NCBI GenBank assembly: GCA_963700145.1
Contig: OY969474.1
Coordinates: forward strand, 5,152,001 to 5,216,000
Length of the DNA stretch: 64,000 nucleotides
Direction of reading: 5' to 3'
Source: an uncultured Acidobacteriota bacterium
GTDB taxonomy: Bacteria > Acidobacteriota > Thermoanaerobaculia > Multivoradales > UBA5704
Positions 1,328 to 60,978 of this stretch are shown here, piece by piece. The position numbers and the translations under genes are program-made. Each line of letters begins with the position of its first letter. The stretch's first letter is position 1. Under the pieces are notes generated by a model. It was not told the DNA's origin, ran no database searches, and saw nothing but the letters and a program-made list of their open reading frames with translations.

Positions 1328-2344
<1,017 letters not shown>

Positions 2345-2480
2345 CCGAGGAGCGGGGGTGCAAGTGAAGTGCCACGGCGGAGGCCCGTAAAGCCTTGGGG
2401 CGACGGCACAAAGAGGCGCATTCCCACGCCGCCAATGCCAATTCGGCAGGGGAGGGCGGCGCACGGGCAGCCCTTTCCCC

Positions 2481-2740
2481 GCCGGGCGCTCCAGGACGCA
2501 AACGGGCGCTCCCGAACGCAGACGGGCGCTCCGGAACCGAAACGGGCGCTCCGGAACCGAAACGGGCGCTCCCGCACCGAAACGGGCGCTCCCGCACCCA
2601 AACGGGCGCTCGCGGACGCAAACGGGCGCTCGCGCACCGAGATGGGCGCTCCGGGACCGAAACGGGCGCTCGCGCACCGAAACGGGCGCTCGGGAACCGA
2701 ACTGGCCGCTCCGAAACGGAAACGGGCGCTTCGGAAGCCA
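2481..2740. repeat. Tandem array of 13 x 20-bp units, consensus approximately AACGGGCGCTCCGGAACCGA
   Basis: The GGGCGCT core recurs every 20 bp from 2484 to 2724 (GGCCGCT in one unit); the second half of each unit is variable. Confidence 0.95.
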
Positions 2741-35744: not shown

Positions 35745-35746
35745 TC

Positions 35747-39556: not shown

Positions 39557-39608
39557 TCCCTTCTCCTCCCGGCGGATTCCGTCGAGTTAGACGATCGATT
39601 GCCGGCGA

Positions 39609-46760: not shown

Positions 46761-47537
46761 TCAACTCGCCGCGGGCGCCTCGGCCGGCCCCTCGCCGGTG
46801 TTGCCGACGTCCCGCTCGAAGTCGTGGACCCAGACGTCGCGCAGGTAGACGCGCTGCGCGGGGGTGAGGGAGGCGAGGACTTCGGGCGCCACCGGGAAGC
46901 GGTGGAACTGCATGCCGACGTGGTTGTAGGAGTAGAAGACCGCGACGCGCGGCCGTTCGGCGTTCTGCCAGGGGGGGCCGCCGTGGGCGGTGTTCTCCGA
47001 GAAGACGACGACCGATCCGGCGGGGCAGCGGGGGCGGCAGAGGAAGGGGGAGCGCCGCTCCGGCTCGAGGAGCTGGTGCGCGGCCGGGACCGGGTAGTTC
47101 GCCTTGTGGCTGCCGGGGAGGAAGCAGGTGCCGCCGTCGTCTTCTCCGACGTCGTTGAGCTCGAAGACGACGCGGGTGAGACCGGAGCGGATGCGGCCGC
47201 CGGTGAAGTGGTAGTGGAAGAAGGGGTCGGGGATCGGACCGCCGTGGTGCAGGTTCATCGGGTGCCGCTGCCCCTTCTCGCGCCAGAGGACGTAGGCGTG
47301 GTCGAGGCGCAGGTAGGGGCCGATGATCTCGCGCAGCAGGTCGACGACGACCGGGTGGTCGATCAGCGCCGCCAGCTCGCCGCCGGGCACGGTGCGCGCG
47401 TGCGGCGGCAGCCTCTCCGGGGCGTGGACCATGAGGTCGATCTGCGCCTTCAGCCGCTCGCACTGCGCCGCCGGCAGCAAGTTCTCGACGACGAGGAAGC
47501 CGTTGAGGTCGAAGAGGAACTTCTGCTCCTCGGTCAC
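46761..47537 (-). CDS. PhyH-family Fe(II)/2-oxoglutarate oxygenase with HxG metal site
   Basis: FDLNGFLVVENLL, LHHGG, GGTCFLPGSHK, AGSVVVFSENTAHGG...R. Confidence 0.85.
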   Translation of the reverse strand: MTEEQKFLFDLNGFLVVENLLPAAQCERLKAQIDLMVHAPERLPPHARTVPGGELAALIDHPVVVDLLREIIGPYLRLDHAYVLWREKGQRHPMNLHHGGPIPDPFFHYHFTGGRIRSGLTRVVFELNDVGEDDGGTCFLPGSHKANYPVPAAHQLLEPERRSPFLCRPRCPAGSVVVFSENTAHGGPPWQNAERPRVAVFYSYNHVGMQFHRFPVAPEVLASLTPAQRVYLRDVWVHDFERDVGNTGEGPAEAPAAS

Positions 47538-48568
47538 GATGGTCGCGCCTCCTTTCCCGCCGCGGCGCAGAGACGCGCGAGGTCCAAGCGGGTGAAAAGA
47601 TCGTCACCGCCGAGGTTGGCGGCGGCGAACCGCCGCAGCGCGCTCTCCTCGCCGGCGGGGTCCTTCTGGTGGAACGAGACGTAGGCGAGGGCGTTGAAGA
47701 AGCGGAGCAAGAGCGGCAGGGTCGCGATCCAGGCGGGCTCCAGCCGTTTCTCCGCCTGGTAGCCGGCGAGGAAGGGGACGAGAAAGCTCCGCGCCCCCTC
47801 CTCCGCCCCGTCCCCCGCCGCCAGGTGGAACAGCGTTACCCAGAGAGTGATCGCGAGGTCGTAGGCGTACCAGGCCCAGCCGCAGTTGTCGAAGTCGAGG
47901 ACGACGACCCGCCCGTCGCGCCAGAGGAGATTGGCGGCGGTGAGGTCGCCGTGGATCATGCCGTAGCTCCCGGCGTCGGCGGGGAGTTGCGCGATCTCCC
48001 GCCAGAGCGCGCGCAGGCGGTCGGCCACCCGGCGCTCGGCGGCGGGGAGGGCGTCGCGCGCACAGTCGCTCAACGCTTCGCCGTCGAGCACGTGGCGGCG
48101 GAAGCCGCTCGGCGAAGCGAAAGAGCGGGAGAGGGCGTGGATCCGTCCGGCGGTCCGCCCCCACTCCGCGAACAGCGCTTCCCCCCAGGCGCGGCCGGGC
48201 GCGCAGCCGACCCTGAGACCGTGTGCCTGGTGGAGCGCCACCGCGCAGCAGGGTCCCTCTTCGGGGTGCCCGACGCTCTCCACCCAGCGGCCGGCGAGGG
48301 ACGGGACCGGCGGCGGGACCGCGACGCCGCTGGCGTCGAGGAAGCGCACCCAGGCCAGCTCCTCCTCGATGTGCCGCCGGTCGCGGTGCGCCTGCCGGCT
48401 CAGCCGCAGGACCAGCGGGCAGCCGTCGCGGGTGAAGCGGTAGAGGCGGTGGTTGGTGGAGCCGCGCAGCGGCCGGATGCTTTCGCGATCGCCCCCCCAA
48501 CGCTCGACGATCTCGCGCAGGCCGTCCGGCGCGAGCGGCCGCGGGCGGTAGCCGTCGATCCCGCTCAA
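47534..48568 (-). CDS. APH / type II homoserine kinase-like phosphotransferase
   Basis: TTG 48568 overlaps the upstream stop; LVLRL, EELAWV, IHGDLTAANLL, LDFDNC. Confidence 0.85.
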   Translation of the reverse strand: MSGIDGYRPRPLAPDGLREIVERWGGDRESIRPLRGSTNHRLYRFTRDGCPLVLRLSRQAHRDRRHIEEELAWVRFLDASGVAVPPPVPSLAGRWVESVGHPEEGPCCAVALHQAHGLRVGCAPGRAWGEALFAEWGRTAGRIHALSRSFASPSGFRRHVLDGEALSDCARDALPAAERRVADRLRALWREIAQLPADAGSYGMIHGDLTAANLLWRDGRVVVLDFDNCGWAWYAYDLAITLWVTLFHLAAGDGAEEGARSFLVPFLAGYQAEKRLEPAWIATLPLLLRFFNALAYVSFHQKDPAGEESALRRFAAANLGGDDLFTRLDLARLCAAAGKEARPS

Positions 48569-49737
48569 CGCGCCGCCTCCTCGAGCCAGAGCTCTGCGTG
48601 CGCCGGCAGCCGCGCCCGCTCGAGCGCCTGCTCGACGAGCGCGGAGACCCGCTCGAGCGAGTACTCGCGGCGGACGCGGTGCCGCCCCCGCTCGCCCATC
48701 GCCCGCCGCTCCGGCTCCGCCGCCAGCCTCGCCAGCGACAGGCTCAGCCCGAGCGAGCCGTGCTCCGGCGGGTTGAGCAGCCCGCTCTCGCCGTGGTGGA
48801 CGATCTCGGCGAGGCCGCCGACGGCGTTGGCGACCACCGGCAGACCCAGGAGGTGGGCCTCCAGGGCGACCAGCCCGAACGGCTCGTAGCGCGAGGGCAC
48901 GACCACGAGATCGGCCGCCGCGAGGAGGCTCAGGAAGCGCGGTCGCGGCTGCCAGGGGAGGAAGGCGTAGCTGTCGGCCGGCAGGTCGCGGAGGAGGTAG
49001 GCGAAGCGGTCCTTGTTGGCGAGGACCAAGAGGAAGACGTCCTGCCGCTGCCGATGGAAGCGGACGAAGGCCCGGTAGGCTAGGTCGGCCCCCTTCGCGT
49101 AATCGGAGAAGCGCCCCGCCGCGGCGACGACGAGCGGCCGCCGCCCCTGCTCGCGCCGCGCCGGCGGGAGGAAGCCGTCGTCCGGCTCGACGGCGTCGAA
49201 CTCCTCGAGAGGCAGCCCGTTGGGGATCACGGCGACGCCGCCGGAGGCGAGGTCGTAGCCGAAGGCCAGCGCCTCCCGCACCTCCTGGGGCGAGAGGAAG
49301 ACGTTGAGCGCGGCGTGCGCCGCCGCCTCCATCTGCGCCGCCGCCTGCGCCCTCTGGCGCGCCCGTGGCCGCAGCTCGGCGCGGGCATAGGGGCCGAGCA
49401 GCGCCTGGAAGTGGTTGACCAGCGGCACCTCCGCCTCCCACGGGCGGAGGCAGGCGACGACCTCGCAGCCGAACGACAGTGCGCCCAGGTTGTAGACCAG
49501 GTCGTAGGCGCCGAGGTCGATGCGGTCCGCCAGGAAGCGCGTGAGCCGCTCGGGGTCGCCGCGCGTCGGCTCGTCGACCGGGAACGCCACCTCGCCGGGG
49601 ACGGAGTCGCCGTCGGCGCGCGCCACGACGTCGACGCGGTGGCGCCGGCGCAGCGCCTCGACCAGCGCCCGGCAGGCCACCTCCGAGCCGTTGTGCTCCG
49701 GCCAGCGCAGGAAGTCGGTGACGACGAGGAGGTTCAA
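48565..49737 (-). CDS. GT4 family glycosyltransferase
   Basis: TTG 49737 overlaps the upstream stop; VIPNG, GRF...KG, PSRYEPFGLVALEA, VGGLAEIV. Confidence 0.92.
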   Translation of the reverse strand: MNLLVVTDFLRWPEHNGSEVACRALVEALRRRHRVDVVARADGDSVPGEVAFPVDEPTRGDPERLTRFLADRIDLGAYDLVYNLGALSFGCEVVACLRPWEAEVPLVNHFQALLGPYARAELRPRARQRAQAAAQMEAAAHAALNVFLSPQEVREALAFGYDLASGGVAVIPNGLPLEEFDAVEPDDGFLPPARREQGRRPLVVAAAGRFSDYAKGADLAYRAFVRFHRQRQDVFLLVLANKDRFAYLLRDLPADSYAFLPWQPRPRFLSLLAAADLVVVPSRYEPFGLVALEAHLLGLPVVANAVGGLAEIVHHGESGLLNPPEHGSLGLSLSLARLAAEPERRAMGERGRHRVRREYSLERVSALVEQALERARLPAHAELWLEEAAR

Positions 49738-52652
49738 GGCGCCGCCGCCAGCCGCAGGGCGCCGGGCGCGAGCGGCCGCGCCTCCTCGGCAGGGGCGGCG
49801 AACAGCTCGGGGTGATGCTTCCACTTGCGGTAGAAGAGGTCGAAGTTGTCGGCGAAGCTGTGGTTGCGCTGGCGGTTGTGGTGGACCACCGCGACCTGCC
49901 CGGCATAGAGGCAGCGGAAGCCCCGCCGCCGCGCCTTCAGGCAGAAGTCCACGTCCTCCATCTGGCTGCCGACGTAGACCTCGTCGAAGCCGCCGACCGC
50001 GCGCACGACGTGGCGGCGCACCAGCAGCAGCGTCGAGGGGAGCCACGGCACCTCGGCGAGGTAGTCGTACTGCCCCTGGTCGGGCGCGCCGAGCCCGCGC
50101 GGCGCCGGCCGCCAGCGGCGGTTGAAGTAGGGGTCGGCGCAGAAGATCGTCCCCTGGCCGTTGAGGATCTTCGGGGCGACCAGGTCGGCCTCCCGCTCGT
50201 GGAGGGCGGCGAGGAGGAGGTCGAACGTGTCGGGCGCCACGACCTCGACGTCGTCGTCGAGGTAGCAAACGTAGGGGCGGGCGCCGCGCGCCGAGCCCTC
50301 GTTCCGATTGGCGGCGCTGCTCTGCTGCCGCTCGATCACGTGCACGGCGTCGTCGGCGACGCCGCAGCGGGCGAGCGAGCGGAGGCAGCGCTCGAGCTGG
50401 CCGCGGGAGTGTCCCGGCCGCTGGCGGAAGAGCTGCAGCATCAGGTGCGGGCGGTCGTCCGGCGGCAGCGGCGGCAGTTGCAGGAGCAGGAGGTCGTGGT
50501 AGTTCCGGCGGTCGGGGCGGAAGGCGAGCTCGAGCCGCAGCTCGGCGGCGGCGGGGGCGGCGCCGCACACCGCCAGCGGGATCGAGAGGTCACGGAAGTA
50601 GAGCGACTCGCCGCGCAGCGCGTACACTCCGGCGGCGACCGGCTCGCCGGTCGAGCGGGAAACGACGCGAGCCTCCAGCGCACCGTGGAGCGACCCCTCG
50701 GAGGAGGCGACGACGACGATCCGGCTCAGCCGCCCGCAGCCGGGCGGGAGCGGCAGCGCGCAGCGGTTGCGGCCGTCGAGCTTCACCAGCACCGGCTCGA
50801 AGGCCGAGGGAGGGCGGCTGTAGGGGTAGGGGAGCTCGGCCTCGTCCTGCTCGTAGAAGGGGATCACGAAGTCGATCTCCTCCTGCCGGCCGCGCGGCTG
50901 CGGCAGCCGCCGGTAGCGGAAGGGCTGGACCTCGTTGCTCCGCGCGAGCGGCAGGCCGGCGCGCGCGATCGTCTTGTCGGCGAGCCGGCGCCACATCTCG
51001 AGCGCCCCCTCCGGCTTGAGCCAGAGGCTGGCCCGTCGGCCGTGCAGCCGGTAGTGATAGAGCACCTCGTCGAGCAGCTCGATCGAGGCCACCTCCTCGA
51101 CCTTGGTGAAGATGTCGCAGTCCTCGCCCGCGAACTTGAAGTCCGCGAACCCCTCCCACCCCGCCGTCCGCGCGTAGGCCGCGCGGCGGATCAGGTAGGG
51201 CTGGCAGTGGTTGTAGAGGTCGGTGACCATCCCGTCCTGGTAGTGGCGCGGCTCGAAGGGGAACCAGGGGTCCATCTCGACCGGCGCGCCGCTCTCGTCG
51301 ATGAACTCGCGGCGCGCGCGCACGATCCCGCACCACGGCCGGCTGCGCGCGCCGGCGAGGAACCGCTCGACGGCCTCGGCGGCAAGCACGTCGTCGTCGT
51401 CGAGGGGGAGGATGAACTCCCCGCCGGCGCGCTCGCTGAGCAGCCGGCGGGCGCGCGCGATCCCGCGGTTGGGCTCGAAGTGGACCGCGATCCGCGGGTG
51501 GTCCAGGGCCGCGAGCCGCTCGAGGATGCGGCGCGAGAGGTCGTCGCCGCCGTCCCAGAGCAGCGACAGCCGCCAGTCGGTCGAGGTCTGGTGGAGCGCC
51601 GACTCGACGCAAGGGATGAGGAAGCTCCCCTTGAAGACCGGCGTCTCGACCGAGACGGCGCCGGGCTCGACCGTGCCGATCTCTTCCATCCGCGCCCGCC
51701 AGGCGAGGAGCCGCTCGGCGAACGCCTCGATCTCCGCCTCCTGCTCCGCCGGCGGCAGGAGCGAGAGGTCGAGGTGCCGGAGGTCCGCGACGCGGAAGGG
51801 CGGCAGCGGCCCCTGCGCGTTCAGCCCGACGCGGTACAGCTCGTCGACCGCGGCGCCGGTGCGCCGGGGCCAGAAGAAGCGGCCGCGGAGCTGGCAGCTC
51901 CGGCAGACTTCGAGGGCGCCGGCGCGGCGAGCGTGCTGCCCCTTGCGCAGCAGGATCCGCTCCGGCGTGTCGGCGAAGAGGTTGCCGAGGTCGATTCCCT
52001 CGGCGCCGCCGTCGCGCGGGCAGAAGCGGACCGCGCCTGCGGCGTCGAGCGTCACGGTGTTGCCATAGATCTGGCAGCCGGTGGGGAGCGCCGCCAGCTC
52101 GGGCGGGAGGTCGGCCGCCCCCGGCGCGGCGGGCTCGGGGAGCGTGAAGAGGGGGGAGTCGACCAGCTCCGCGGGGATGCCGTAGTCGAGGAACGAGCGC
52201 ACCCTCCGGAAGCAGGCGCCGTCAGGCTCGGCAGGCTGCCAGAAGCCGAAGCGCAGGGCGGAGGAAGGGGTGGCGAGGAGGTGCTCGGCGAGCGCCTGCA
52301 GGGCCCGCTCGGTGCGCTCGTGGCCGCCGGGAGCGGCCTGCACCAGGAGCCGTCTCGGCCCATCGTCTTCGAGCCGGGCGAGGAGCTCGCGGGTCACCTG
52401 CTCGGGCGCGAGGAGGAGATAGACCGCGCTCGGCACCGCGGCGCGCGCGGCGAGGAAGGCGAGACAGCGGTCCCCTTCGCCGCGCTCGGTGGGGAGGAAG
52501 GCGTAGAGATCGACTCCTTCCTCCTCCTGGTCAGCCGCGACCAGCCAGGCGAGCAGCGCCGCGAGGCGCGCCCGCCCTTCGGCGGCGTAGAGGCTGCGCT
52601 CGTCCGCCGCGTCGTCCGCGGCCCCCCGCCGCGGCAGCAGGATCAGGTCCAT
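49734..52652 (-). CDS. Multidomain protein: degenerate radical-SAM/SPASM region plus two GT2 domains
   Basis: SPASM-like CQIYGNTVTLDAAGAVRFCP...CRSC with no CxxxCxxC; first GT2 LPLDDDD...GEDCD; second GT2 YLDDDVE...GGFDE...MEDVD. Confidence 0.8.
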   Translation of the reverse strand: MDLILLPRRGAADDAADERSLYAAEGRARLAALLAWLVAADQEEEGVDLYAFLPTERGEGDRCLAFLAARAAVPSAVYLLLAPEQVTRELLARLEDDGPRRLLVQAAPGGHERTERALQALAEHLLATPSSALRFGFWQPAEPDGACFRRVRSFLDYGIPAELVDSPLFTLPEPAAPGAADLPPELAALPTGCQIYGNTVTLDAAGAVRFCPRDGGAEGIDLGNLFADTPERILLRKGQHARRAGALEVCRSCQLRGRFFWPRRTGAAVDELYRVGLNAQGPLPPFRVADLRHLDLSLLPPAEQEAEIEAFAERLLAWRARMEEIGTVEPGAVSVETPVFKGSFLIPCVESALHQTSTDWRLSLLWDGGDDLSRRILERLAALDHPRIAVHFEPNRGIARARRLLSERAGGEFILPLDDDDVLAAEAVERFLAGARSRPWCGIVRARREFIDESGAPVEMDPWFPFEPRHYQDGMVTDLYNHCQPYLIRRAAYARTAGWEGFADFKFAGEDCDIFTKVEEVASIELLDEVLYHYRLHGRRASLWLKPEGALEMWRRLADKTIARAGLPLARSNEVQPFRYRRLPQPRGRQEEIDFVIPFYEQDEAELPYPYSRPPSAFEPVLVKLDGRNRCALPLPPGCGRLSRIVVVASSEGSLHGALEARVVSRSTGEPVAAGVYALRGESLYFRDLSIPLAVCGAAPAAAELRLELAFRPDRRNYHDLLLLQLPPLPPDDRPHLMLQLFRQRPGHSRGQLERCLRSLARCGVADDAVHVIERQQSSAANRNEGSARGARPYVCYLDDDVEVVAPDTFDLLLAALHEREADLVAPKILNGQGTIFCADPYFNRRWRPAPRGLGAPDQGQYDYLAEVPWLPSTLLLVRRHVVRAVGGFDEVYVGSQMEDVDFCLKARRRGFRCLYAGQVAVVHHNRQRNHSFADNFDLFYRKWKHHPELFAAPAEEARPLAPGALRLAAAP

Positions 52653-52662
52653 GGCGATCGCC

Positions 52663-53676
52663 TCACGCCGGCAGCCCCAGCTCGGCGAGGCTCCAGAACG
52701 GCTCGACGGCGGCCGGCGGCGGGGCCGCCTCTCCGCCGTAGAGCCGCGCGTCGCGCCGCGCCAGTCGCTCGAGCCGGCGGCGGTCGGCGGCGGCGAAGAG
52801 CGAGCGGTGGACGTCGAGCAGCAGGAGCTTCTCCCCGAGCACGCCGGAGACGTCCTCGGTCCAGACCTCCAGCTCCGCGTACGCGCGCTCGAAGCGGGAG
52901 AGGAAGTCGTCGGCGTGCAGGTAGGCGGCGGCGAAGGGGAAGTCCTCGTAGAAGTGGAAGCGGGTCGCGGGGAACCAGCCCTGCTTGAAGAAATCGAGCG
53001 CGATCTCGAAGAGCATCTTGTGGTCGGAGTGCTCGCCCATGCCGGCGGGGGCGAACAGGTCGGCGGGCGGCGCCGCGGCGAGCAGCCGGTAGAGGCTCTG
53101 CGTCAGGGCGCTGCGCAGCCGCTCCTCCGCCCGTTCCAGCCGATCCTCGGGGACGAGGCCGAGGCGGATCTCGTCGGCCGGGAAGTCGAGGCACGCCACC
53201 TCGCAGCCGGCGATGCGCGCGCAGAGCGCCGCCTCGTCGCGGCGGATCGCCGAGACGGCGTGGACGGTGTCGAAGGCCTCCGGCAGCAGCGTCGTCGCGA
53301 CCTGCGAGAAGCAGCTCACCACGGCGCAGCGCCGCCGGCCGCGCCGGTTGAGCAGGTACCCCCCCATCGACAGGAACCCGACGTGCGGGTGGGGCGACAG
53401 CACGACGACCCGTTCGCCGGCCGCCGCGGCCGCGGCGCACGCCGGCAGCGGCCGGTCCAGCCAGACGACGTACTCCAGCGCCGCCGCCGGCAGCTCCCGG
53501 CCGGGGAAGCGCTCCCGCAGGTCGCGGTAGGCCGTCCGGCCGTCGCAGGCCCGACAGAGCGGGGCGGCGTCGGCGGGGACCTCCGGCCAGGGACCGGCGC
53601 CCAGCCAGGCGCCGTCGGCGGCGAAGCCGGCGTGCGGCAGCAGGCGCGGGTAGGCGTCGGGGTGGAGCGCCTGCAC
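52663..53676 (-). CDS. PIG-L/LmbE-family deacetylase with a small N-terminal PqqD/RRE-like region
   Basis: GTG overlaps the upstream stop (TAGTG); VVLSPHPHV, RRDE, HSDH, FYEDFPF; N-terminal PLCRACDGRTAYRDL. Confidence 0.75.
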   Translation of the reverse strand: MQALHPDAYPRLLPHAGFAADGAWLGAGPWPEVPADAAPLCRACDGRTAYRDLRERFPGRELPAAALEYVVWLDRPLPACAAAAAAGERVVVLSPHPHVGFLSMGGYLLNRRGRRRCAVVSCFSQVATTLLPEAFDTVHAVSAIRRDEAALCARIAGCEVACLDFPADEIRLGLVPEDRLERAEERLRSALTQSLYRLLAAAPPADLFAPAGMGEHSDHKMLFEIALDFFKQGWFPATRFHFYEDFPFAAAYLHADDFLSRFERAYAELEVWTEDVSGVLGEKLLLLDVHRSLFAAADRRRLERLARRDARLYGGEAAPPPAAVEPFWSLAELGLPA

Positions 53677-55184
53677 TAGACGCTCTCGAGCAGGTGGGAG
53701 AGGTCGTGGAGGTAGACCCGGGGGTCGCGCAAGAGCGGGTCGCGCAGCAGCTCGCGCAGCTCGCCGTGCTCGGGGTGGTCCGGGGCCTGCACCGCCCGGC
53801 GAGCGTGGTCCGCGGCGGAGTAGGTCCCCCAGTTGACGAGCTGCTTGAAGCAGACGACGTCGCAGCCCAGCTTCCGCCCCAGCTCGGCGAAGGCCCGCAT
53901 CTCGCGGAAGTTGTTGGCCTGGACGACGAAGTGCAGCTCGAAGCGCGCCAGCTCGCCGGCGGCGCGCAGACCGCCGAGGAAGCGGAGGTTCGCCAGGAGC
54001 TGCGCGAAGTCGCCGCCGCGGTTGGCGGCATAGGTCGCCGGCGTCGCGGCGTCGACCGAGACGTCGACGCTGTCGACCGCGTCGTGGCAGATCGAGCGCC
54101 AGGTCTCCTCGTTCAGCAGCAGGCCGTTGGTCGAGAGGGTGATGCGCAGCCCGGGGATCGCCGCCGGGTCGAAAGTGCGCAGGAACGAGAGGTAGAGGCG
54201 GCTGCCGAAGGGATCGCCGCTGCCGGTGATGATCAGCCGCTCGGCGTCGCGCAGGTGGCGGCCGAGGACCCGCTCGTGGATGACGCTCGCCCGCTGCCGC
54301 GCCTTCCCCCGGAGCACGATGAAGTCGCCGCGGCAGGAGGGGCAGGCGAGGTTGCAGGAGCGGTCGTAGGAGAGGTTCATGATGCGCGGCCCGTGGTCGA
54401 GGCGGGTGATCCGCTCGGCGATGATCCGCCGGTGCTCGGGATGGGTGACCTCCTCGACGCGCGGCAGGGCGCGCTGCTGCAGCAGCCCGCACGTCGACTC
54501 GCAGCAGTAGGCGAAGGTGCCGTCGAGGATCGACTCGCGGACGGCGACCGCAGCGGGCGAGTTCCAGGCGCTCATCAGGTCCTGCCCGTCGAGCCGGCCG
54601 ACGCTCGTCGGCAGGAGCTGCGGGCAGCAGAGGTAGAGCTGGCCGAGGGGGTCGATCTGGGCGTACTGGAACGGCTGCGCGCAGAAGAGGCCGGCGAACT
54701 TGGCGCCGTGCTCCTCGGCCGCCGGCAGCCCGCTCACGGCCACCGCCTCGACCGGCGGCGGCAGCCCCGCCAGCAGCTCCTTGAGCCGGGCGCCGAGCGG
54801 GTCGCTCGCCGTCTCCACCTGGAGCAGGCTGTCGAGCCCGAGGCCGGCGAGGGCGCCCCGCTGCGCCGCGTCGAGGCCGGCGGCCAGCCGCTCGCCGGCC
54901 CGCGCCGCGATCCGCCCCCCCTCCTCGAGATAGCTCGCGCCCGCCCCCGCCGCGCGCTCGCCGCCCAAGTAGGCGAGGAAGGCCCCCTCCAGCGCCGCCG
55001 CCTCCAGCTCCGGCGCGTCGTTCCACCGCCGCGCGAGGAAGGCGAGCGGCGAGGACTTGCCGTCGGCGGTGCCCCGCCCGCAGACCGCGGCGAACGCTTC
55101 CTTGGCGGCGGTCAGCAGGGCCTCGGACTGGAGCGCCTGCTCAGGGTCGAGGCGCAGCGACGAGCGGAAGGTCGTCCATTCCAT
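53676..55184 (-). CDS. Radical SAM protein with N-terminal SPASM/twitch-like domain
   Basis: CAQPF...IDPLGQLYLCC...WNS precedes CNLACPSC, GSGDPF, STNG, VSVDA. Confidence 0.9.
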   Translation of the reverse strand: MEWTTFRSSLRLDPEQALQSEALLTAAKEAFAAVCGRGTADGKSSPLAFLARRWNDAPELEAAALEGAFLAYLGGERAAGAGASYLEEGGRIAARAGERLAAGLDAAQRGALAGLGLDSLLQVETASDPLGARLKELLAGLPPPVEAVAVSGLPAAEEHGAKFAGLFCAQPFQYAQIDPLGQLYLCCPQLLPTSVGRLDGQDLMSAWNSPAAVAVRESILDGTFAYCCESTCGLLQQRALPRVEEVTHPEHRRIIAERITRLDHGPRIMNLSYDRSCNLACPSCRGDFIVLRGKARQRASVIHERVLGRHLRDAERLIITGSGDPFGSRLYLSFLRTFDPAAIPGLRITLSTNGLLLNEETWRSICHDAVDSVDVSVDAATPATYAANRGGDFAQLLANLRFLGGLRAAGELARFELHFVVQANNFREMRAFAELGRKLGCDVVCFKQLVNWGTYSAADHARRAVQAPDHPEHGELRELLRDPLLRDPRVYLHDLSHLLESV

Positions 55185-57630
55185 GACCGGTCCCCGGCCA
55201 GATCGCGAGCCCGCGCGGGGCGTCGTCCCGCTCGCGCGAGGGGCAGAAGTCGCAGCCCCGGCAGAAGTCCCGCTGCTCCCCCCGGACGTAGCCGAGGAGC
55301 TTCTCGAAGTGCATCTGCTGCAGGCTTTTCCGGCGCAGGTTGCCGTACGAGGTCTGCCGCCGGTAGTCCATGGCGCAGAGCCGCATCTCGCCGTCGGCGG
55401 AGATGAACATCAGCGAGCGGGCGATCTTGCACAGGTTGTCCTCTTCCGCGTGGTCGCGGAAGATGTCCACCGCCACCAGCGGGTCGTCGCGGTAGGCGGC
55501 GGCGAAGCCGTCGAGAGACGCCGACTTGATCTCCGCCCCCAGCAGCCCGGCCCGGTTGTTGACCGGGTGCAGCCAGATCTGCGACGGGCCGCGCGGCCGC
55601 CAGTACTCGACGAACGCCGCGACCTCGTGCTGGTTGGCGGTGCAGACGACGAAGCTGGCCTGCACCCGCACTTGCGGCCAGGCGCGGCGGCGCAGCTCGA
55701 GGATCTCCTCCAGGTTGGCGACGATGCGGTCGAAGCGTTTCAGCTTCATCACCCGCCGGTGGGTCTCGGCGGTGGCGGCGTTGAGGCTGAAGTTGAAGCT
55801 CGCCAGCCCCAGCGCGGCCAGCTCCTCGAAGCGCCGCGGGGTGAGGAGCTCGCCGTTCGTGGTCATGGCGACGAAGGCGCCGGCCTCGGCCAGCGTGCTG
55901 ACGATGCGGTCGAGCTGCGGGTGGAGTGTCGACTCGCCGATGCCGCAGAGCACGACCTGCCGCCGTTTCGGCTCCCCCCGCAGCTCGTCGGCGAGCCGCT
56001 CGACGACCTCCAGGTCGAGGTAGCGCTTGCGGTCGGGCATCACCTCGCGCGGGCAGAAGCCGCAGACCGCGTTGCAGGCCGAGGTCACCTCCAGGTCGAT
56101 CGTCACGTCGCTCAGGTCGCCGAGCGTCTGGTACTGGAAGAAGTCGGTCGAGCAGACCACCTCGGGGCCACGCTCCGCGCCGGCGAAGGCGGTGACCGCG
56201 CGCTGGAAGTTGCCGCGCAGCTGGAAGCGGCGGTCCATCCGACGCCAGGCCGGCGGGCAGAAGCGGGTCTCCAGGTTCTGGAAGTGCGCCATCGCCTCGT
56301 CGACCGCGAAGCGGAGCGTCAGGTTCTTGGTCGACAGCCGGCGCAGGTAGAGGGCCCGGTCGAGCAGGCAGGTCTCGATCCCGGCGCGGTCGAGCTTGTG
56401 GAAGAGGATCGTGTCCTCGCCCGCGCGGTGGAGGTCCTCGTCCCACTCGTACCCGTCCACCTCGGCGAGCGCCGCCCGCGCCACCGCGTAGGGCTGGGTG
56501 ATCTCCAGTGGGTCGTTGGGGATGCCGTCGATCAGGTAGCGCTGGCGTGGCGGCAGCTCCTCCGCGACCAGCCCGACGATCCGCGCGCCGGCCCGGAAGC
56601 AGCGCGCCTCGGGGTGGCGGCGGGCGGCGGCGGCGAAGACCGCCAAGGCGTCGGGCAGCAGCATGTCGTCGTCGTCGATGGTGACGACGAAGTCGCCGCC
56701 GGCCCGCTCGGCCAGGCTCCGCCGGGTCGGTCCGGTCCCCCGGTTCTCCTGCCAGGTGCAGGCGATGCGCGGGTCGGCGAAGTCGGCGAGGATGGCGCGG
56801 ATCCGGGCCGCCGCGGCGGGAGGCGGGCCGTCGACGGCGAGCAGCAGCTCCCAGTGGGGCCAGGTCTGATCGCGCACCGAGCGCACCATGTCGGCCAGGA
56901 AGTCCGGCTTGAAGACCGGGCAGACGACGCTGAAGCGCGGGAAGGGCGCCGCGGCGGTCGCCGGGTCGGCGGGCGGGGGAACGGGGAGGAAGCGGCTGCG
57001 GCTCTCCAGCCGGAGCTGTGGCGGGACGGCCGCCGCCGCGTCGCGCTGGCGGCAATCGGCGTAGTCGGCGCGCAACGCCTCCCGGCGGTGGTACACCAGC
57101 TCCCCCGCCCAGGCGCGGGAGTCGAAGCGCGGCTCGAAGCCGTTGACGACGAGCGCCGGCCGCCCCGTCGCCCCGAGCTCCCGCGCGAGCGCGAGCAGGG
57201 CGAACTCCGGCGTCCGGCAGGTCAGGGCCGCCGAGCCGCTGAGCGCGGCGCGGTCGGCGAGGCAGAGCCAGGAGGGGAGGAGAGGCGCGGCGGCCGGGCA
57301 GTCGGCGCGCTCCGCCGCCAGGCCGAGCACGCTGCGCAGGGCCGGAGTCCAGAAGGTGAGCGCCGGAGCGTCCGGCCGCGCCGCCGCCGCTGCCACGAGA
57401 AGGCGCCAGCCGCTTTCGTCGAGCGCGACCGCGTCGTCGAGGAACAGGACGCGGCGGGCCGCGCCCTCGAGGAGCCGCGAGCGGACCGCCGCGAGGTCGT
57501 CGCCCAGCCGGTAGCGGACGACCTCGCCGCAGCCCCCTTCGCCCGGGGCCGGGAGCCGCGCCGCCGGCGCGGCGCGGCCGCCGCAGCCTTCCCGCAGGAA
57601 GACGTCGATCCGCTCCGGCGCGCCGCTCAC
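55141..57630 (-). CDS. GT2 glycosyltransferase - radical SAM - SPASM/twitch fusion
   Basis: GTG 57630 overlaps the upstream stop. GT2: FSVVCPVF, TIDDDD, GED. rSAM: CNAVCGFC, GIGESTLHP, TTNG. C-terminal CKIA...LCAMD...CRGCDFC. Confidence 0.88.
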   Translation of the reverse strand: MSGAPERIDVFLREGCGGRAAPAARLPAPGEGGCGEVVRYRLGDDLAAVRSRLLEGAARRVLFLDDAVALDESGWRLLVAAAAARPDAPALTFWTPALRSVLGLAAERADCPAAAPLLPSWLCLADRAALSGSAALTCRTPEFALLALARELGATGRPALVVNGFEPRFDSRAWAGELVYHRREALRADYADCRQRDAAAAVPPQLRLESRSRFLPVPPPADPATAAAPFPRFSVVCPVFKPDFLADMVRSVRDQTWPHWELLLAVDGPPPAAAARIRAILADFADPRIACTWQENRGTGPTRRSLAERAGGDFVVTIDDDDMLLPDALAVFAAAARRHPEARCFRAGARIVGLVAEELPPRQRYLIDGIPNDPLEITQPYAVARAALAEVDGYEWDEDLHRAGEDTILFHKLDRAGIETCLLDRALYLRRLSTKNLTLRFAVDEAMAHFQNLETRFCPPAWRRMDRRFQLRGNFQRAVTAFAGAERGPEVVCSTDFFQYQTLGDLSDVTIDLEVTSACNAVCGFCPREVMPDRKRYLDLEVVERLADELRGEPKRRQVVLCGIGESTLHPQLDRIVSTLAEAGAFVAMTTNGELLTPRRFEELAALGLASFNFSLNAATAETHRRVMKLKRFDRIVANLEEILELRRRAWPQVRVQASFVVCTANQHEVAAFVEYWRPRGPSQIWLHPVNNRAGLLGAEIKSASLDGFAAAYRDDPLVAVDIFRDHAEEDNLCKIARSLMFISADGEMRLCAMDYRRQTSYGNLRRKSLQQMHFEKLLGYVRGEQRDFCRGCDFCPSRERDDAPRGLAIWPGTGHGMDDLPLVAAPRP

Positions 57631-58478
57631 AAAGGGGCGACCTCGCCGGCGTAATCCATCCTCTGGCGCAGGTCGTCGTGCTCCGGCATGTGCCCCCACT
57701 CCGCCTCGAAGATCCGGAAGTTGTGGAAGACGATGTCGCTCTTCTCGTCCTGCGTCTTCTCGGTGTAGGTGGCGTGCCCCAAGTGGTAGACGAAGCAGTC
57801 CTCGCGCACCACCAGGCGGTAGCCGAGCTGCCGCAACTGACAGGAGAGGGCGAGGTCCTCGAAGTAGCCGTGGCGGTAGGCGAGGCCGAAGAGTCCCACG
57901 CGCTCGAAGAGCCGGCGTTCGAGCGCCAGGCACATGCCGGTCAGGTAGGGCGCCTCGGTGATCGTCCCGGCCGGGACCGGGCGGAGGCGGTGGAACTGCC
58001 GGTCGAGGTCCGCGCCGGGGTCTTCGACCGCGTCCGGGAGCAAGCCGGCGAGCGCCGGCCGGTACTGGAAGAGGTCCGTGGGATGGTTCGACACCGGCGC
58101 CGCGGCGCCCACCCGCGGGTCGACCATCGCCTCCAGCAGCCGGAGGTCGAACTCGGGCGTGACCACCGTGTCGCTGTTGAGGAAGAAGACGTACGGCCGC
58201 CGGCCGGCGCAGAAGCCCGCGCACAGGGCCTCCTTGTAGCCCCGGTTCTCGGGCAGCGTCACCACCTCGATCGGCCGCCCGGCCCGCGCCACGAACTCGT
58301 CGACGGCGCGCCGCTCCCGCGGCCGCGACCCGTCGTCGATCAGGACGACGTGATGCCGTCTCCCGATGGCCGCGAGCAGGGCGCGCAGGCAGCGGAGGAG
58401 GACCTCGTGCTTGTTGAAGAAAGGCACGAGGATGTCCGCCTCGGGTGGAGCCGGCCGCGCCGGCCAGCGGCCGGTCAC
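57627..58478 (-). CDS. GT2 family glycosyltransferase
   Basis: DILVPFFN, IDDGS, FLNSDT, GYFED, FVYHLG. Confidence 0.92.
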   Translation of the reverse strand: MTGRWPARPAPPEADILVPFFNKHEVLLRCLRALLAAIGRRHHVVLIDDGSRPRERRAVDEFVARAGRPIEVVTLPENRGYKEALCAGFCAGRRPYVFFLNSDTVVTPEFDLRLLEAMVDPRVGAAAPVSNHPTDLFQYRPALAGLLPDAVEDPGADLDRQFHRLRPVPAGTITEAPYLTGMCLALERRLFERVGLFGLAYRHGYFEDLALSCQLRQLGYRLVVREDCFVYHLGHATYTEKTQDEKSDIVFHNFRIFEAEWGHMPEHDDLRQRMDYAGEVAPL

Positions 58479-58714
58479 TTGCCCTTGGCTTGCTGGGCCT
58501 CGAGCTGCTTCGCCAACTCCCTCATCTGCACGTGCTTGGCGATGACGACCTCGGCGAGCTTCTTCATCTGCAGGTGCTTGGCGATGACGACCTCGGCGAG
58601 CTTCTTCATCTGTACGTGCTTGGCGATGATCACCTCGGCCACTTTCTTCGACCGCAAGGCCTGGGCGCGCTCGAGAAGCTGCTCCTCGCTCAGGTACTCA
58701 CCTTTGTTGCTCAT
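58475..58714 (-). CDS. 79-aa peptide with three tandem 14-aa repeats; candidate precursor or substrate peptide
   Basis: SD AAAGGGGG; overlaps both neighbours; (KK[V/L]AEV[I/V]IAKH[V/L]QM)x3. Confidence 0.85.
   Translation of the reverse strand: MSNKGEYLSEEQLLERAQALRSKKVAEVIIAKHVQMKKLAEVVIAKHLQMKKLAEVVIAKHVQMRELAKQLEAQQAKGK
58523..58648. repeat. 3 x 42-bp in-frame tandem repeat
   Basis: Units at 58523-58564, 58565-58606 and 58607-58648; differences are synonymous or V/L/I swaps. Confidence 0.97.
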
Positions 58715-59903
58715 CGTGCCCCCTTTCGTCGGATCGGTTGGTTCGTGGAACGGTCAGGATCTCCTCGACGACGGCGCGCGGCTCCGGCAGGGCGGAGCGC
58801 TGCCGCCGCCAGCGGCGGCAGTTCCGCTTCAAGGCGGCGCGGCGCTCGTCGTCGAACAGCAGCGCGGCCGCACGGCCGACCACCTCGGTCTCATTCAAGA
58901 CTTCCGCCACTTCGTAGCAGCCGGCGATCTCGAAGCGCCCCTCGAGCGCGTCGGAGATCTCGCACATGCCGTACGGGAAGACGCGGTAGGGAAAAAAGCG
59001 GCCCGCCAGGAAACTGCCGGCCTCCAGGCCGCGACTCGCCTCGGAGTTGGCGAGCAGGAGGGCCGGCGTGCCGAGATGGAAGGCGTCGACGATGCAGGAG
59101 AGGAGCGAGTCGGCGAGGTAGAGGTCGGCGGCGCCGACCAACGCCAGGAACTCCTCGTAGGGGACGAACGGCACGTGCCGCACGTGCGCCAGGCCGGCCA
59201 GCTCGGGGAGGGGCCGCGGCATCAGCAGGAAGACCTGGGCGCGGTCCAGCGGCGGGCGCGAGAGCAGCCCGCCGAGGTGCCGGTAGTAGCCGGGGAAGTG
59301 CTCCTGGATGTAGTCGAAGCGGTTGCGGGAGACGGCGTAGACCAGCGACCGTCTGTCCGGGTCGCCGCCGTGGCGGGCGAGGGTCTCGGCGCGCGGGCGA
59401 CGGCGCGCCGCGGCGTAGGCGCGGCGGGCGCGGAAGTGGCGGGCGTTGGGGCTCGTGGGTTCGAGCGACATGTAGCGCAGCGCCCACACCCAGTGCGGCA
59501 CGGCGGCGAAGCGCTTCGGCTCGGCGCTGCCCGGCAGGCGCAGGTCGAAGCCGATCTCGAAGGGATCGAACGACAGCACCGGCACGCCGAGGTCGTGCGG
59601 CTCGAGCGGGAAGGAGCCGAAGGTCGCCCCCTCCTGGCCGGGGAGGTTCCAGAAGCCGTTACAGGCGACGACGACGGCGTCCGCCGCGAAGTGGTCGACG
59701 GCGGCGAGGATCGTCTCCCGGACGTGGACCGCGGGGGCGAAGAAGAACCGCTCGTCGCGCGGATCGAGGAACGGCGCCAGGCGCGGGCTGAGGACGAACC
59801 CGTAGCGGTAACGCCGGCGCCCCAGGTCCGCGATCCAGGCCTGGCAGAGCGACAGGTCGCCCATGTTGGAGCCGGTCGTGACGACGAACAGCAGCTTCCT
59901 CAT
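58698..59903 (-). CDS. GT-B-fold-like protein of unknown function, first gene of the operon
   Basis: N-terminal LLFVVTTGSNMGD loop and C-terminal FVPYEEFLALVGAADLYL resemble GT-B donor-binding regions; fold is inferred. Confidence 0.6.
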   Translation of the reverse strand: MRKLLFVVTTGSNMGDLSLCQAWIADLGRRRYRYGFVLSPRLAPFLDPRDERFFFAPAVHVRETILAAVDHFAADAVVVACNGFWNLPGQEGATFGSFPLEPHDLGVPVLSFDPFEIGFDLRLPGSAEPKRFAAVPHWVWALRYMSLEPTSPNARHFRARRAYAAARRRPRAETLARHGGDPDRRSLVYAVSRNRFDYIQEHFPGYYRHLGGLLSRPPLDRAQVFLLMPRPLPELAGLAHVRHVPFVPYEEFLALVGAADLYLADSLLSCIVDAFHLGTPALLLANSEASRGLEAGSFLAGRFFPYRVFPYGMCEISDALEGRFEIAGCYEVAEVLNETEVVGRAAALLFDDERRAALKRNCRRWRRQRSALPEPRAVVEEILTVPRTNRSDERGHDEQQR

Positions 59904-60909: not shown

Positions 60910-60978
60910 GCGGAGCGAAGCCTAGCAGCGCGGAATGGCATGGGCGGCCGGAGGGTTCTCCGGCGTATGCCTCGGCGT

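What the first reader, a model, noticed from the sequence alone, without database searches (positions are those of the whole stretch)
58475..58714. 79-aa peptide with leader-like N-terminus and three near-perfect KKLAEVVIAKHVQM repeats
Seen: a 22-aa unique N-terminus (MSNKGEYLSEEQLLERAQALRS), three 14-aa repeats encoded by 42-bp units that differ only by silent or V/L/I changes, and a 15-aa tail. It has a strong SD. The repeats have no Ser, Thr, Cys, Asn or Tyr, the usual glycosylation acceptors; the invariant polar residues are Lys, Glu, His and Gln. Inference: if this is the substrate, glycosylation would be on an unusual residue (His-N, Lys, or hydroxylated Lys/His made by the PhyH enzyme). 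The 14-aa period also equals two heptads, so a coiled-coil scaffold is possible.
Basis: partly seen in the sequence, partly recalled or inferred. Interest (0 to 1): 0.8.

Follow-up and report, generated by a model that had tools for sequence, protein, structure and literature searches.

The report
Histidine-ladder helical peptide beside glycosyltransferases
A real but rare 79-residue gene encodes one long helix with a histidine-methionine motif every 14 residues; it travels with an unusual sugar-transferase-like gene inside an operon of sugar-building and radical enzymes, so it is probably the peptide on which, or with which, an unknown sugar chain is made.

Summary
Window 58475-58714 (minus strand) is a strongly coding 79-aa ORF with three 14-aa repeats, a strong Shine-Dalgarno site, and overlaps with both neighbouring genes.

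It belongs to a rare, unnamed small-protein family with no Pfam or NCBIfam match. I found relatives in one same-genus genome and about seven metagenome proteins. The conserved core is a ladder of His every 14 residues, usually with Met three residues later, on a predicted single helix (residues 10-78). A conserved, disordered KGEYL(S/T) tail precedes the helix.

The peptide co-occurs with a DUF6365 protein that folds as a GT-B glycosyltransferase/epimerase. That protein in turn co-occurs with a widespread GT2-radical SAM/SPASM fusion. A related genome keeps the GT2/rSAM core but has neither DUF6365 nor the peptide.

The nearest characterised relatives of the tailoring enzymes act on sugars or small molecules (BtrN, BlsE, HygX, amicoumacin kinase), not on peptides. 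No aglycone or NDP-sugar pathway genes were recognised.

Best reading (about 0.4): the peptide is the ribosomal acceptor or scaffold of a tailored cytoplasmic glycan, and DUF6365 is its dedicated partner. Rivals are a non-substrate helper of the GT-B and a His/Met metal-binding coiled coil. Glycosylation of His or Lys is untested.

The parts
58475..58714 (-). 79-aa peptide gene (P0001): disordered tail 1-9, predicted helix 10-78
   Evidence: Open frame. GC3 0.91 and GC2 0.25. Orthologue 92% identical in G003. AF2 mean pLDDT 86.1, helix 10-78.
58523..58648 (-). Three 42-bp / 14-aa repeat units (residues 23-64) carrying His33, His47, His61 and Met36, Met50, Met64
   Evidence: TRF 58522-58639, period 42, 93% matches. 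Unit comparison and concerted evolution. His invariant in alignment A2.
58478..58522 (-). Degenerate fourth repeat without His (RELAKQLEAQQAKGK)
   Evidence: Aligns with the xxLAKxLE stretch of relatives.
58688..58711 (-). Codons 2-9, the conserved N-terminal tail motif KGEYL(S/T)
   Evidence: K4 G5 E6 Y7 L8 invariant in A1. pLDDT 59 and no secondary structure for residues 1-9.
58719..58726 (-). Shine-Dalgarno AAAGGGGG, 4 nt before the ATG, inside the 3' end of the DUF6365 gene
   Evidence: Read from sequence.
58698..59903 (-). g1: DUF6365-family protein, GT-B fold; its 3' end overlaps the peptide start by 17 nt
   Evidence: PF19892 50.1 bits, cut-off 32.5. AF2 pLDDT 89.3. Foldseek top hits are UDP-GlcNAc 2-epimerases and GT1 natural-product glycosyltransferases.
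57627..58478 (-). g3: GT2 glycosyltransferase; its GTG start overlaps the peptide stop by 4 nt
   Evidence: PF00535 1.1e-21.
55141..57630 (-). g4: N-terminal domain + GT2 + radical SAM + SPASM fusion (829 aa)
   Evidence: Pfam. Start fixed by homologue P0028. CxxxCxxC visible. Nearest PDB sequences are BtrN and BlsE.
53676..55184 (-). g5: N-terminal helical region + twitch/SPASM + radical SAM
   Evidence: Pfam and NCBIfam NF033640 43 bits, below its cut-off of 170.
52663..53676 (-). g6: PIG-L/LmbE-type deacetylase
   Evidence: PF02585 1.9e-7. Start taken by analogy with G003.
49734..52652 (-). g7: weak SPASM-like N-terminus + two GT2 domains (972 aa)
   Evidence: Pfam.
48565..49740 (-). g8: GT4 glycosyltransferase (start approximate)
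   Evidence: PF00534 2.4e-23.
47534..48568 (-). g9: APH-family kinase
   Evidence: PF01636 2.9e-26. Amicoumacin kinase 6SUI 3.2e-36.
46761..47537 (-). g10: PhyH-family Fe/2OG oxygenase, HygX-like
   Evidence: PF05721. The only PDB sequence hits are HygX entries 4XC9/4XCA/4XCB/4ZPI, with a shared GSHKAN motif (PMC13374393 passages).

Best explanation
The ORF encodes a cytoplasmic 79-residue protein with a short flexible N-terminal tail (KGEYL-S/T) followed by one about 100-angstrom amphipathic helix. The helix displays a His (usually His-x-x-Met) every 14 residues.

I propose that it is the ribosomally made acceptor or scaffold ('aglycone') of the glycan assembled by this ten-gene operon. In this model the adjacent DUF6365 GT-B protein is its dedicated partner and probably places the first sugar. 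The GT2, GT2-rSAM, GT2x2 and GT4 enzymes then extend the chain. The two radical SAM domains, the PIG-L deacetylase, the APH-type kinase and the HygX-like oxygenase tailor the sugars.

Shown here:
- the gene is real and under purifying selection;
- it is translationally coupled to both neighbours;
- it co-occurs with DUF6365, and DUF6365 co-occurs with the GT2-rSAM fusion;
- it is predicted to be helical with a His ladder;
- the tailoring enzymes resemble sugar-acting enzymes.

Inferred only:
- that the peptide is modified at all;
- the attachment site (Tyr7 or Ser/Thr9 in the tail is chemically more conventional than the His ladder);
- the order of steps.
For: 1. Operon geometry. g1 overlaps the peptide by 17 nt, the peptide overlaps g3 by 4 nt, and ten genes are packed or overlapping on one strand. 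The same operon is present in G003, where the upstream neighbour differs, so the operon begins at g1.

2. Co-occurrence with DUF6365. Both genes are present in G000 and G003. By matching source and contig length, both also sit on three metagenome contigs: 6205 nt (P0002 with P0015), 1736 nt (P0011 with P0016; 1173 + 243 nt of coding sequence leave at most 320 nt, so they must be adjacent) and 99629 nt (P0005 with P0021). Neither was found in G033, which keeps g3-g6 and the PhyH gene.

3. DUF6365 and the GT2-rSAM fusion. All 7 of the 7 DUF6365 contigs of 25 kb or more share length, source and, where given, organism name with a g4 homologue. The named ones are Xanthobacteraceae, Pyrinomonadaceae and Crocinitomix.

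4. No other acceptor is encoded. No aglycone-forming enzymes, NDP-sugar pathway genes, flippase or exporter were recognised among the 11 ORFs scanned, so an acceptor has to come from elsewhere or be the peptide.

5. Conservation. The disordered tail is as conserved as the helix: K4 G5 E6 Y7 L8 are invariant in A1, and a [GS]-x-Y-[LI] motif is present in 8 of the 9 members of A2. His33, His47 and His61 are invariant in A2. The peptide is 92.4% identical between G000 and G003, against 88.7-95.8% for six enzymes of the operon.
Against: 1. No modification has been observed, and no RNA or protein data exist.

2. G033 runs the g3-g6/PhyH core with a different, unrelated 170-aa ORF upstream of the GT2. 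About 90 g4-family clusters were found against only 14 DUF6365-subfamily clusters, one of them the window's own protein. The peptide is therefore at most the acceptor of one sub-type.

3. For 10 of the 13 foreign DUF6365 contigs no peptide homologue could be matched; their DNA could not be fetched.

4. No RRE/PqqD domain, leader peptidase or exporter was found.

5. The nearest characterised relatives of the tailoring enzymes act on small-molecule glycosides. This fits a purely small-molecule product equally well.

6. In one relative (P0013) the middle ladder His is Tyr. Several relatives have extra His next to the ladder (HH pairs), a trend more typical of metal ligands than of a single modification site.

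7. The contig matches rest on identical length and source, not on seen DNA.
Confidence: 0.4

Rival explanations
1. Non-substrate helper. The helix oligomerises, or docks on the DUF6365 GT-B protein, as an activator, chaperone or assembly scaffold for the multi-enzyme glycan machinery. This would be analogous in role to the auxiliary partners that some GT1 natural-product glycosyltransferases need (recalled, not tested). The operon's product would then be a small-molecule oligosaccharide.
For: - The peptide and DUF6365 are strictly present or absent together wherever context could be seen.
- DUF6365's fold resembles GT1 natural-product glycosyltransferases.
- A lone 69-residue amphipathic helix with two adjacent hydrophobic seams needs a partner surface.
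- The enzyme set looks like aminoglycoside or oligosaccharide tailoring: BtrN, BlsE, HygX, amicoumacin kinase, PIG-L, GT4.
Against: - No aglycone or sugar-nucleotide pathway is encoded for a small-molecule product.
- The invariant His ladder and the conserved disordered Tyr tail are not explained by simple docking.
Confidence: 0.27
2. Metal- or haem-binding coiled coil. In a homo-oligomer the His (and Met three residues on) at every 14th position would form stacked ligand rings. The protein would bind Cu, Ni, Zn, Fe or haem and buffer or deliver metal for the Fe-S and Fe/2OG enzymes, or serve as a redox partner.
For: - HxxM occurs three times, and His plus Met are the invariant polar residues.
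- His sits on the edge of the hydrophobic seam, with Met in it.
- Relatives add further His beside the ladder (HH pairs in P0003, P0005, P0007).
- One relative has His replaced by Tyr, another metal ligand.
- HX2M and MX2H tetrapeptides are the Ag(I)-binding units of SilE (PMC11904771 abstract; PMC5008109 listing).
Against: - There is no sequence relationship to SilE/PcoE or any Pfam family.
- The protein is cytoplasmic, with no signal peptide.
- Its presence tracks the GT-B gene, not the radical SAM or oxygenase genes, which occur without it in G033.
- Metal binding does not explain the conserved tail.
Confidence: 0.18
3. Classical radical-SAM RiPP. One of the two rSAM/SPASM enzymes cross-links or otherwise modifies each repeat (for example at His, Lys or Met), as in repeat-containing triceptide or streptide-type precursors. 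The glycosyltransferases would act afterwards.
For: - A repeat peptide lies beside two rSAM/SPASM-type enzymes that carry CxxxCxxC.
- Weak NCBIfam hits to peptide maturases: mycofactocin rSAM 32 bits, GeoRSP, ScmF.
Against: - All such hits are far below the curated cut-offs.
- The only PDB sequence hits of the g4 rSAM domain are the sugar- and cyclitol-acting BtrN and BlsE. None of the solved peptide maturases reached E 0.001, and g5 hit nothing.
- No RRE/PqqD was detected.
- The rSAM genes persist in G033 without the peptide.
- There is no protease or exporter.
Confidence: 0.1

Closest known systems
Glycosylated ribosomal peptides (glycocins such as sublancin/SunS; recalled, not tested beyond Pfam and PDB searches)
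   Same: A small ribosomal peptide is encoded directly beside a GT2 glycosyltransferase, and the peptide is helical.
   Different: - The peptide has no Cys at all, and the repeats have no S/T acceptor.
- There is no double-Gly leader and no peptidase/ABC exporter.
- The operon has six GT domains plus radical SAM, deacetylase, kinase and oxygenase genes.
- The product is probably cytoplasmic.
Mycofactocin system (MftA-F)
   Same: A small peptide, an rSAM/SPASM enzyme and a GT2 occur in one operon. The best NCBIfam hit of two GT2 domains is MftF (57.5 and 68.1 bits).
   Different: - The scores are far below the cut-offs (280 for MftF, 265 for MftC).
- There is no C-terminal Val-Tyr.
- No MftB, MftD or MftE equivalents were found.
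Aminoglycoside/oligosaccharide tailoring enzymes: BtrN (4M7T), BlsE (7VOB), HygX (4XC9/4XCA), amicoumacin kinase (6SUI)
   Same: These are the nearest solved relatives by sequence of the g4 rSAM domain, the g10 oxygenase (identical GSHKAN motif) and the g9 kinase. The combination of a PIG-L deacetylase with a GT4 is also typical of such pathways and of mycothiol or bacillithiol synthesis (established knowledge).
   Different: - No cyclitol synthase, aminotransferase or NDP-sugar genes were found.
- The similarities are weak (26-35 bits) except for the kinase (129 bits).
- None of those pathways has a His-ladder peptide or a DUF6365 gene.
SilE/PcoE HXXM-MXXH metal-binding proteins
   Same: Repeated His-x-x-Met units that sit on helices (PMC11904771 abstract; PMC5008109 title and abstract seen in the search listing).
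   Different: - SilE is periplasmic, intrinsically disordered until metal binds, and part of a metal-efflux operon.
- Here there is no signal peptide, the period is a strict 14 residues, the context is glycosyltransferases, and there is no detectable homology.
Glycogenin-type protein-primed glycan synthesis (recalled)
   Same: The concept is a cytoplasmic protein whose Tyr carries the first sugar of a chain that is then extended. Here a near-invariant Tyr lies in a disordered tail beside many glycosyltransferases.
   Different: - Glycogenin is itself the GT8 enzyme, whereas this peptide has no enzyme domain.
- There is no sequence or fold relationship.
- The attachment is wholly hypothetical.

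Membership tests
RiPP precursor with rSAM/SPASM maturase | Short precursor gene adjacent to the modifying enzymes | tested here: met
   The 79-aa ORF overlaps both neighbours, and two rSAM genes lie within 5 kb on the same strand.
RiPP precursor with rSAM/SPASM maturase | RRE/PqqD-like recognition domain in a maturase or as a stand-alone protein | tested here: not met
   No PqqD/RRE hit in the whole proteins at E<=0.01, nor in the N-terminal segments of g4, g5, g6 and g7 at E<=10. This used Pfam HMMs only; a fold-level test was not done.
RiPP precursor with rSAM/SPASM maturase | The rSAM domain groups with peptide-modifying maturases | tested here: not met
   The only PDB phmmer hits for g4 are BtrN and BlsE, and g5 has none. 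NCBIfam maturase hits are 16-84 bits against cut-offs of 170-650.
RiPP precursor with rSAM/SPASM maturase | Leader peptidase and/or exporter in the cluster | tested here: not met
   None among the 11 ORFs scanned with Pfam and NCBIfam.
Mycofactocin system | MftC and MftF equivalogs above cut-off, and MftA with a C-terminal VY | tested here: not met
   TIGR03962 scores 32.4 and 28.0 bits (cut-off 265). TIGR03965 scores 57.5 and 68.1 bits (cut-off 280). The peptide ends in QQAKGK.
Glycocin (SunA/SunS type) | Cys/Ser/Thr acceptor in a disulfide-stapled helix-loop-helix, plus a peptidase-ABC exporter | tested here: not met
   The peptide has no Cys, is predicted as a single continuous helix, and the cluster has no transporter. 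The defining features are recalled.
SilE/PcoE-type metal-binding protein | HXXM/MXXH motifs | tested here: met
   H33-M36, H47-M50 and H61-M64. The first two pairs are invariant in A2.
SilE/PcoE-type metal-binding protein | Periplasmic export signal, metal-resistance operon context, sequence homology | tested here: not met
   The N-terminus is polar (MSNKGEYLSEEQ), the context is glycosyltransferases and rSAM enzymes, and there is no Pfam hit even at E<=10 other than chance coiled-coil families.
SilE/PcoE-type metal-binding protein | Metal binding | not testable with these tools
   Needs purified protein.
Coiled-coil / long-helix protein | Continuous helix with heptad-compatible periodicity | tested here: met
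   AF2 gives a helix over residues 10-78, with pLDDT 89-95 over the repeats. The 14-residue unit places V/I at position 7 and Met at position 14 on one seam, and Ala at position 4 and His at position 11 on the adjacent seam. The oligomeric state was not tested.
DUF6365 (PF19892), for the neighbouring gene g1 | Score above Pfam's gathering cut-off | tested here: met
   50.1 bits against a cut-off of 32.5, although only profile positions 238-400 are matched. All 14 homologues carry the precomputed PF19892 label.

The most novel reading that the evidence does not exclude
A cytoplasmic, ribosomally made helical peptide serves as the primer on which a multi-sugar chain is assembled and then released or displayed. 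The chain would be tailored by radical SAM enzymes, deacetylated, phosphorylated and possibly orthoester-bridged, making it aminoglycoside-like. Attachment would be at the conserved Tyr tail or, without precedent, at the three ladder histidines. This would join RiPP logic to oligosaccharide-antibiotic chemistry and would give the DUF6365 GT-B family its first function as a peptide-priming glycosyltransferase.
Probability: 0.2. Interest if true: 0.85.

Novelty: new variant of a known kind. Interest (0 to 1): 0.6.

Why it matters
If the peptide is the acceptor, this would be a peptide-glycan conjugate pathway of a type not described in the literature I could search (searches returned nothing relevant). 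Its enzymes are otherwise known from aminoglycoside and oligosaccharide antibiotic pathways.

It would give a first functional handle on two unstudied families. One is DUF6365, which occurs in no paper of the searched library. The other is a GT2-radical SAM/SPASM fusion found in about 90 sequence clusters from Acidobacteriota, Bacteroidota, Xanthobacteraceae, Planctomycetota and others.

Even if the helper or metal-binding reading is right, a natural His/Met ladder on a strict 14-residue helical repeat is a compact model for metal- or partner-binding coiled coils.

The system is small enough (79 aa plus one 401-aa partner) for a direct co-expression and mass-spectrometry test.

Tried and rejected
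- **Complex prediction, DUF6365 + peptide** (both as alignments): score 0.00 in both runs, the tool's verdict was 'no answer', and controls were not run. This is no evidence either way.
- **Expression**: no RNA holder listed. The 11 rows are soil or rhizosphere DNA runs from 6 studies.
- **Laying contigs of 4 runs**: contigs break inside the repeat. One 278-nt contig (X3) spans the gene with 19 mismatches, a 3-nt deletion in the tail and no 42-nt indel. X4 carries a 6-nt insertion at about the site where G003 has two extra codons. No repeat-number variant was seen. Parts without cover prove nothing.
- **Genome-contig scan**: returned only the G003 contig.
- **Class and phylum samples:**
  - Peptide profile: 3 of 401 genomes at E<=0.01. 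Only G000 is a small ORF; the other two matches lie inside 517- and 788-aa frames.
  - DUF6365: 1 of 401, G000 only.
  - g4: 1 of 401 in each of two searches, with only 3 candidates scored per genome, so weak matches may be missed.
- **Plasmid collection, tblastn** with g4 and with DUF6365: no match.
- **ESM Atlas**: no usable hit.
- **Pfam at E<=10** on all 9 family members: only chance coiled-coil-type hits (DUF16, Fib_alpha, CHASE3).
- **PF19892 in 14 control genomes**: 0 hits.
- **Weak second match in G000** (E 0.11): this is an XRE/HigA-like antitoxin ORF next to a small toxin-like ORF. It is unrelated.
- **Three of the 7 hits of the exhaustive profile search** (P0006 870 aa, P0008 655 aa, P0010 482 aa): rejected as unrelated repeat or coiled-coil proteins.
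- **G033's 170-aa ORF upstream of its GT2:** no similarity to the peptide and no Pfam family.
- **Promoter/terminator scan of the operon**: 0 promoter-like sites. There were 5 terminator-like sites against 3.7 expected, so this is uninformative.
Full report
**1. Observation**

The minus strand of window 58475-58714 is an uninterrupted 79-codon frame. It reads MSNKGEYLSEEQLLERAQALRS, then KKVAEVIIAKHVQM, KKLAEVVIAKHLQM and KKLAEVVIAKHVQM, then RELAKQLEAQQAKGK.

- Tandem Repeats Finder reports a 42-bp unit x 2.8 copies at 58522-58639 with 93% matches and no indels.
- Among the 8 tandem-repeat rows of the whole window it is the only one with a period of 30 bp or more.
- GC by codon position is 0.62/0.25/0.91. 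This matches the third-position bias of the neighbouring genes in this 70-75% GC genome.
- AAAGGGGG lies 4 nt upstream of the ATG.

**2. The gene is real and constrained**

A same-genus genome (G003, a Thermoanaerobaculia MAG by its record title) has an orthologue of 81 aa.

- Between the two genomes the 42 repeat codons carry 5 synonymous and 0 amino-acid changes. All 6 amino-acid changes lie in the N-terminus or the tail.
- Overall identity is 92.4%, within the range of six enzymes of the operon (88.7-95.8%).
- Repeats 2 and 3 differ by 1 nt within each genome, but by 2 nt between orthologous units. The same two silent changes occur in both units. The two units are therefore being homogenised.
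- In more distant relatives the repeats have diverged from each other. The 'near-perfect' repeat is a lineage feature, not a family feature.

**3. The family**

- A word-indexed search of 5.8 billion clusters found 2 relatives: P0002 (82 aa) and P0003 (79 aa).
- An exhaustive HMMER profile search of 1.84 billion representatives found 7 proteins at E<=0.001.
  - I accept 4 of them: P0003, P0005 (160 aa, two helical modules), P0007 (93 aa) and P0009 (81 aa).
  - I reject 3 long repeat or coiled-coil proteins.
- Cluster look-up added P0011, P0012 and P0013.
- No Pfam or NCBIfam model matches. Even at E<=10 only chance coiled-coil families appear.
- In the 9-sequence alignment the invariant residues are M1, H33, M36, E41, H47, M50, H61 and Q75.
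- Cutting the proteins into 14-residue units gives the consensus [AK]-K-L-A-[EK]-x-[VI]-I-[AL]-[KH]-H-x-[QK]-M.
  - Units were selected by their 14-spaced His, so the His position is fixed by construction.
  - Met occurs at H+3 in 16 of 24 distinct units. A few off-register units of P0005 are included in that count.
- Against strict invariance, P0013, which is not in the alignment, has Tyr at the middle ladder position.
- AlphaFold2 with this alignment predicts residues 10-78 as one helix (pLDDT 89-95 over the repeats). Residues 1-9 have no structure (pLDDT 59).
- That disordered tail is nevertheless conserved. K4 G5 E6 Y7 L8 are invariant in the five close members. KGSYL occurs in P0005 and SDYI in P0009/P0012, so a Tyr motif is present in 8 of 9 aligned members.
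- At 3.5 residues per turn, V/I (position 7) and Met (position 14) share one seam. Ala (position 4) and His (position 11) form the adjacent seam, and Leu (position 3) with Lys/His (position 10) form the seam on the other side. The hydrophobic face is therefore wide, with the His ladder on its edge.

**4. Surroundings**

Ten genes on the minus strand are packed or overlapping:

| Gene | Coordinates | Product |
|---|---|---|
| g1 | 58698-59903 | DUF6365 |
| peptide | 58475-58714 | 79-aa His-ladder peptide |
| g3 | 57627-58478 | GT2 |
| g4 | 55141-57630 | N-terminal domain + GT2 + radical SAM + SPASM |
| g5 | 53676-55184 | twitch/SPASM + radical SAM |
| g6 | 52663-53676 | PIG-L deacetylase |
| g7 | 49734-52652 | SPASM-like + two GT2 domains |
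| g8 | 48565-~49740 | GT4 |
| g9 | 47534-48568 | APH-type kinase |
| g10 | 46761-47537 | PhyH-type oxygenase |

- The peptide start overlaps g1 by 17 nt, and its stop overlaps the g3 start by 4 nt.
- G003 has the same ten genes in the same order. It has a different upstream neighbour, so the unit starts at g1.
- Among the 11 ORFs scanned I found no transporter, flippase, peptidase, aglycone-forming enzyme or sugar-nucleotide pathway gene.

**5. What the neighbours resemble**

- The DUF6365 protein, modelled with 14 homologues (pLDDT 89.3), has a GT-B fold. The best Foldseek matches are UDP-GlcNAc 2-epimerases and GT1 natural-product glycosyltransferases (CalG1, CalG3, elaiophylin GT, VinC, SnogD), with TM-scores of 0.47-0.57.
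- By sequence, the only solved relatives of the g4 rSAM domain are BtrN and BlsE. g5 has none.
- The only solved relatives of g10 are the four HygX entries. An identical GSHKAN motif aligns at the first iron-ligand His. HygX forms the orthoester of hygromycin B on a glycoside substrate (PMC13374393, passages of section 7 and a figure legend read).
- g9 is closest to amicoumacin kinase (3.2e-36).
- g3 hits generic GT2 enzymes.
- No RRE/PqqD domain was detected.
- The tailoring set therefore looks sugar-directed rather than peptide-directed. Earlier notes of this scan on other GT-rSAM fusions read them the same way. I treated that as a lead and tested it only through.

**6. Who travels with whom**

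I could not read the metagenome DNA. I therefore matched proteins by source and longest-contig length.

- Peptide relatives and DUF6365 relatives share contigs of 6205 nt (JGI), 1736 nt (ENA) and 99629 nt (ENA).
- On the 1736-nt contig the two genes fill 1416 nt, so they must be adjacent.
- All 7 foreign DUF6365 contigs of 25 kb or more (45487, 27708, 99629, 25146, 72663, 33481, 26874) also match a g4 homologue. Organism names agree where given: Pyrinomonadaceae, Xanthobacteraceae, Crocinitomix.
- The six shorter contigs are too small to judge.
- g4 homologues are much more numerous: 90 clusters at E<=1e-20, including a cultured Pedobacter. There are only 14 DUF6365-subfamily clusters, counting the window's own protein.
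- G033, from another genus of the same family and 93% complete, has g3-g6 and the PhyH gene at about 56% identity. It has neither DUF6365 nor the peptide anywhere in its assembly. An unrelated 170-aa ORF sits upstream of its GT2.
- The other three same-genus genomes lack the whole system.
- In even samples of 400 genomes of the class and of the phylum, none of the peptide, DUF6365 or g4 was found outside G000. These are samples, and for g4 only 3 candidates per genome were scored.
- For 10 of the 13 foreign DUF6365 contigs I have no information on a peptide.

**7. Interpretation**

The peptide and the DUF6365 GT-B protein form a module that plugs into a subset of a widespread GT2-rSAM sugar-tailoring cluster.

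- *Acceptor reading (0.4).* The operon encodes six GT domains and five tailoring activities, but no source of an acceptor and no export. I therefore favour the peptide as the acceptor or scaffold of the glycan, with DUF6365 as the priming enzyme. The disordered, conserved Tyr-bearing tail is the chemically conventional site, and the His ladder is the unconventional one.
- *Helper reading (0.27).* The same co-occurrence data fit a non-substrate helper of the GT-B.
- *Metal-binding reading (0.18).* The His/Met ladder, the extra His in relatives and the His-to-Tyr variant fit a metal- or haem-binding coiled coil. HX2M units bind Ag(I) in SilE (PMC11904771 abstract).
- *Classical rSAM-cross-linked RiPP (0.1).* This is least supported.
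- A complex prediction gave no verdict, and no RNA data were available.

**8. Verdict**

Glycosylation, its site and the role of PhyH are unproven, and the PhyH step is weakened. The family and its pairing with DUF6365 appear undescribed in the library searched. Interest is 0.6.

Noticed in passing
window 3015-4307 (+) and 5370-6662 (-): Two 100% identical 430-aa Mutator/IS256-family transposase genes in inverted orientation, about 1 kb apart. This may be a composite transposon or a recent IS duplication.
   Followed up: partly
window 2483-2730: A 20-bp tandem repeat x 12.4 copies (83% matches, score 265), with a period that is not a multiple of 3. It overlaps the 5' end of the longest frame of a MoxR-type AAA ATPase gene (1328-2677, minus strand).
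   Followed up: no
window 58523-58606 versus L009 8329-8412: Concerted evolution. Repeats 2 and 3 of the peptide gene share the same two silent substitutions in the G003 orthologue, so the units are homogenised within each genome.
   Followed up: yes
window 46761-47537 (-): The PhyH-type oxygenase carries GSHKAN, identical to HygX at the first iron-ligand His, so the usual acidic residue after the His is missing. It also has an E-x3-H (SENTAH) further on, which resembles the unusual HygX-type iron site described in PMC13374393.
   Followed up: partly
L026 (G033:C378) 10770-11282 (+) and 9784-10662 (-): In the related cluster that lacks the peptide, an unrelated 170-aa helical ORF sits directly upstream of the GT2 and a 292-aa ORF without a Pfam family lies beside it. 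They may be that cluster's own acceptor or partner.
   Followed up: partly
G000:C1:4193256-4193907 (L035 757-1408): A small toxin-antitoxin-like pair: a 121-aa ORF followed by a 93-aa ORF that reads like an XRE/HigA-type antitoxin. It surfaced as a chance weak match to the peptide. The family assignment is by eye and was not scanned.
   Followed up: no
window 28043-42377 (-): Four consecutive very large ORFs (1240, 1328, 1269 and 922 aa) with a strong coding signal on the minus strand. They were not examined.
   Followed up: no
window 60922-62387: Between the operon and kdsC there is a lipid A acyltransferase gene (60040-60909, minus strand) and plus-strand BNR/Sortilin-like repeat ORFs. These are absent from the corresponding place in G003, where kdsC directly precedes the DUF6365 gene.
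   Followed up: partly
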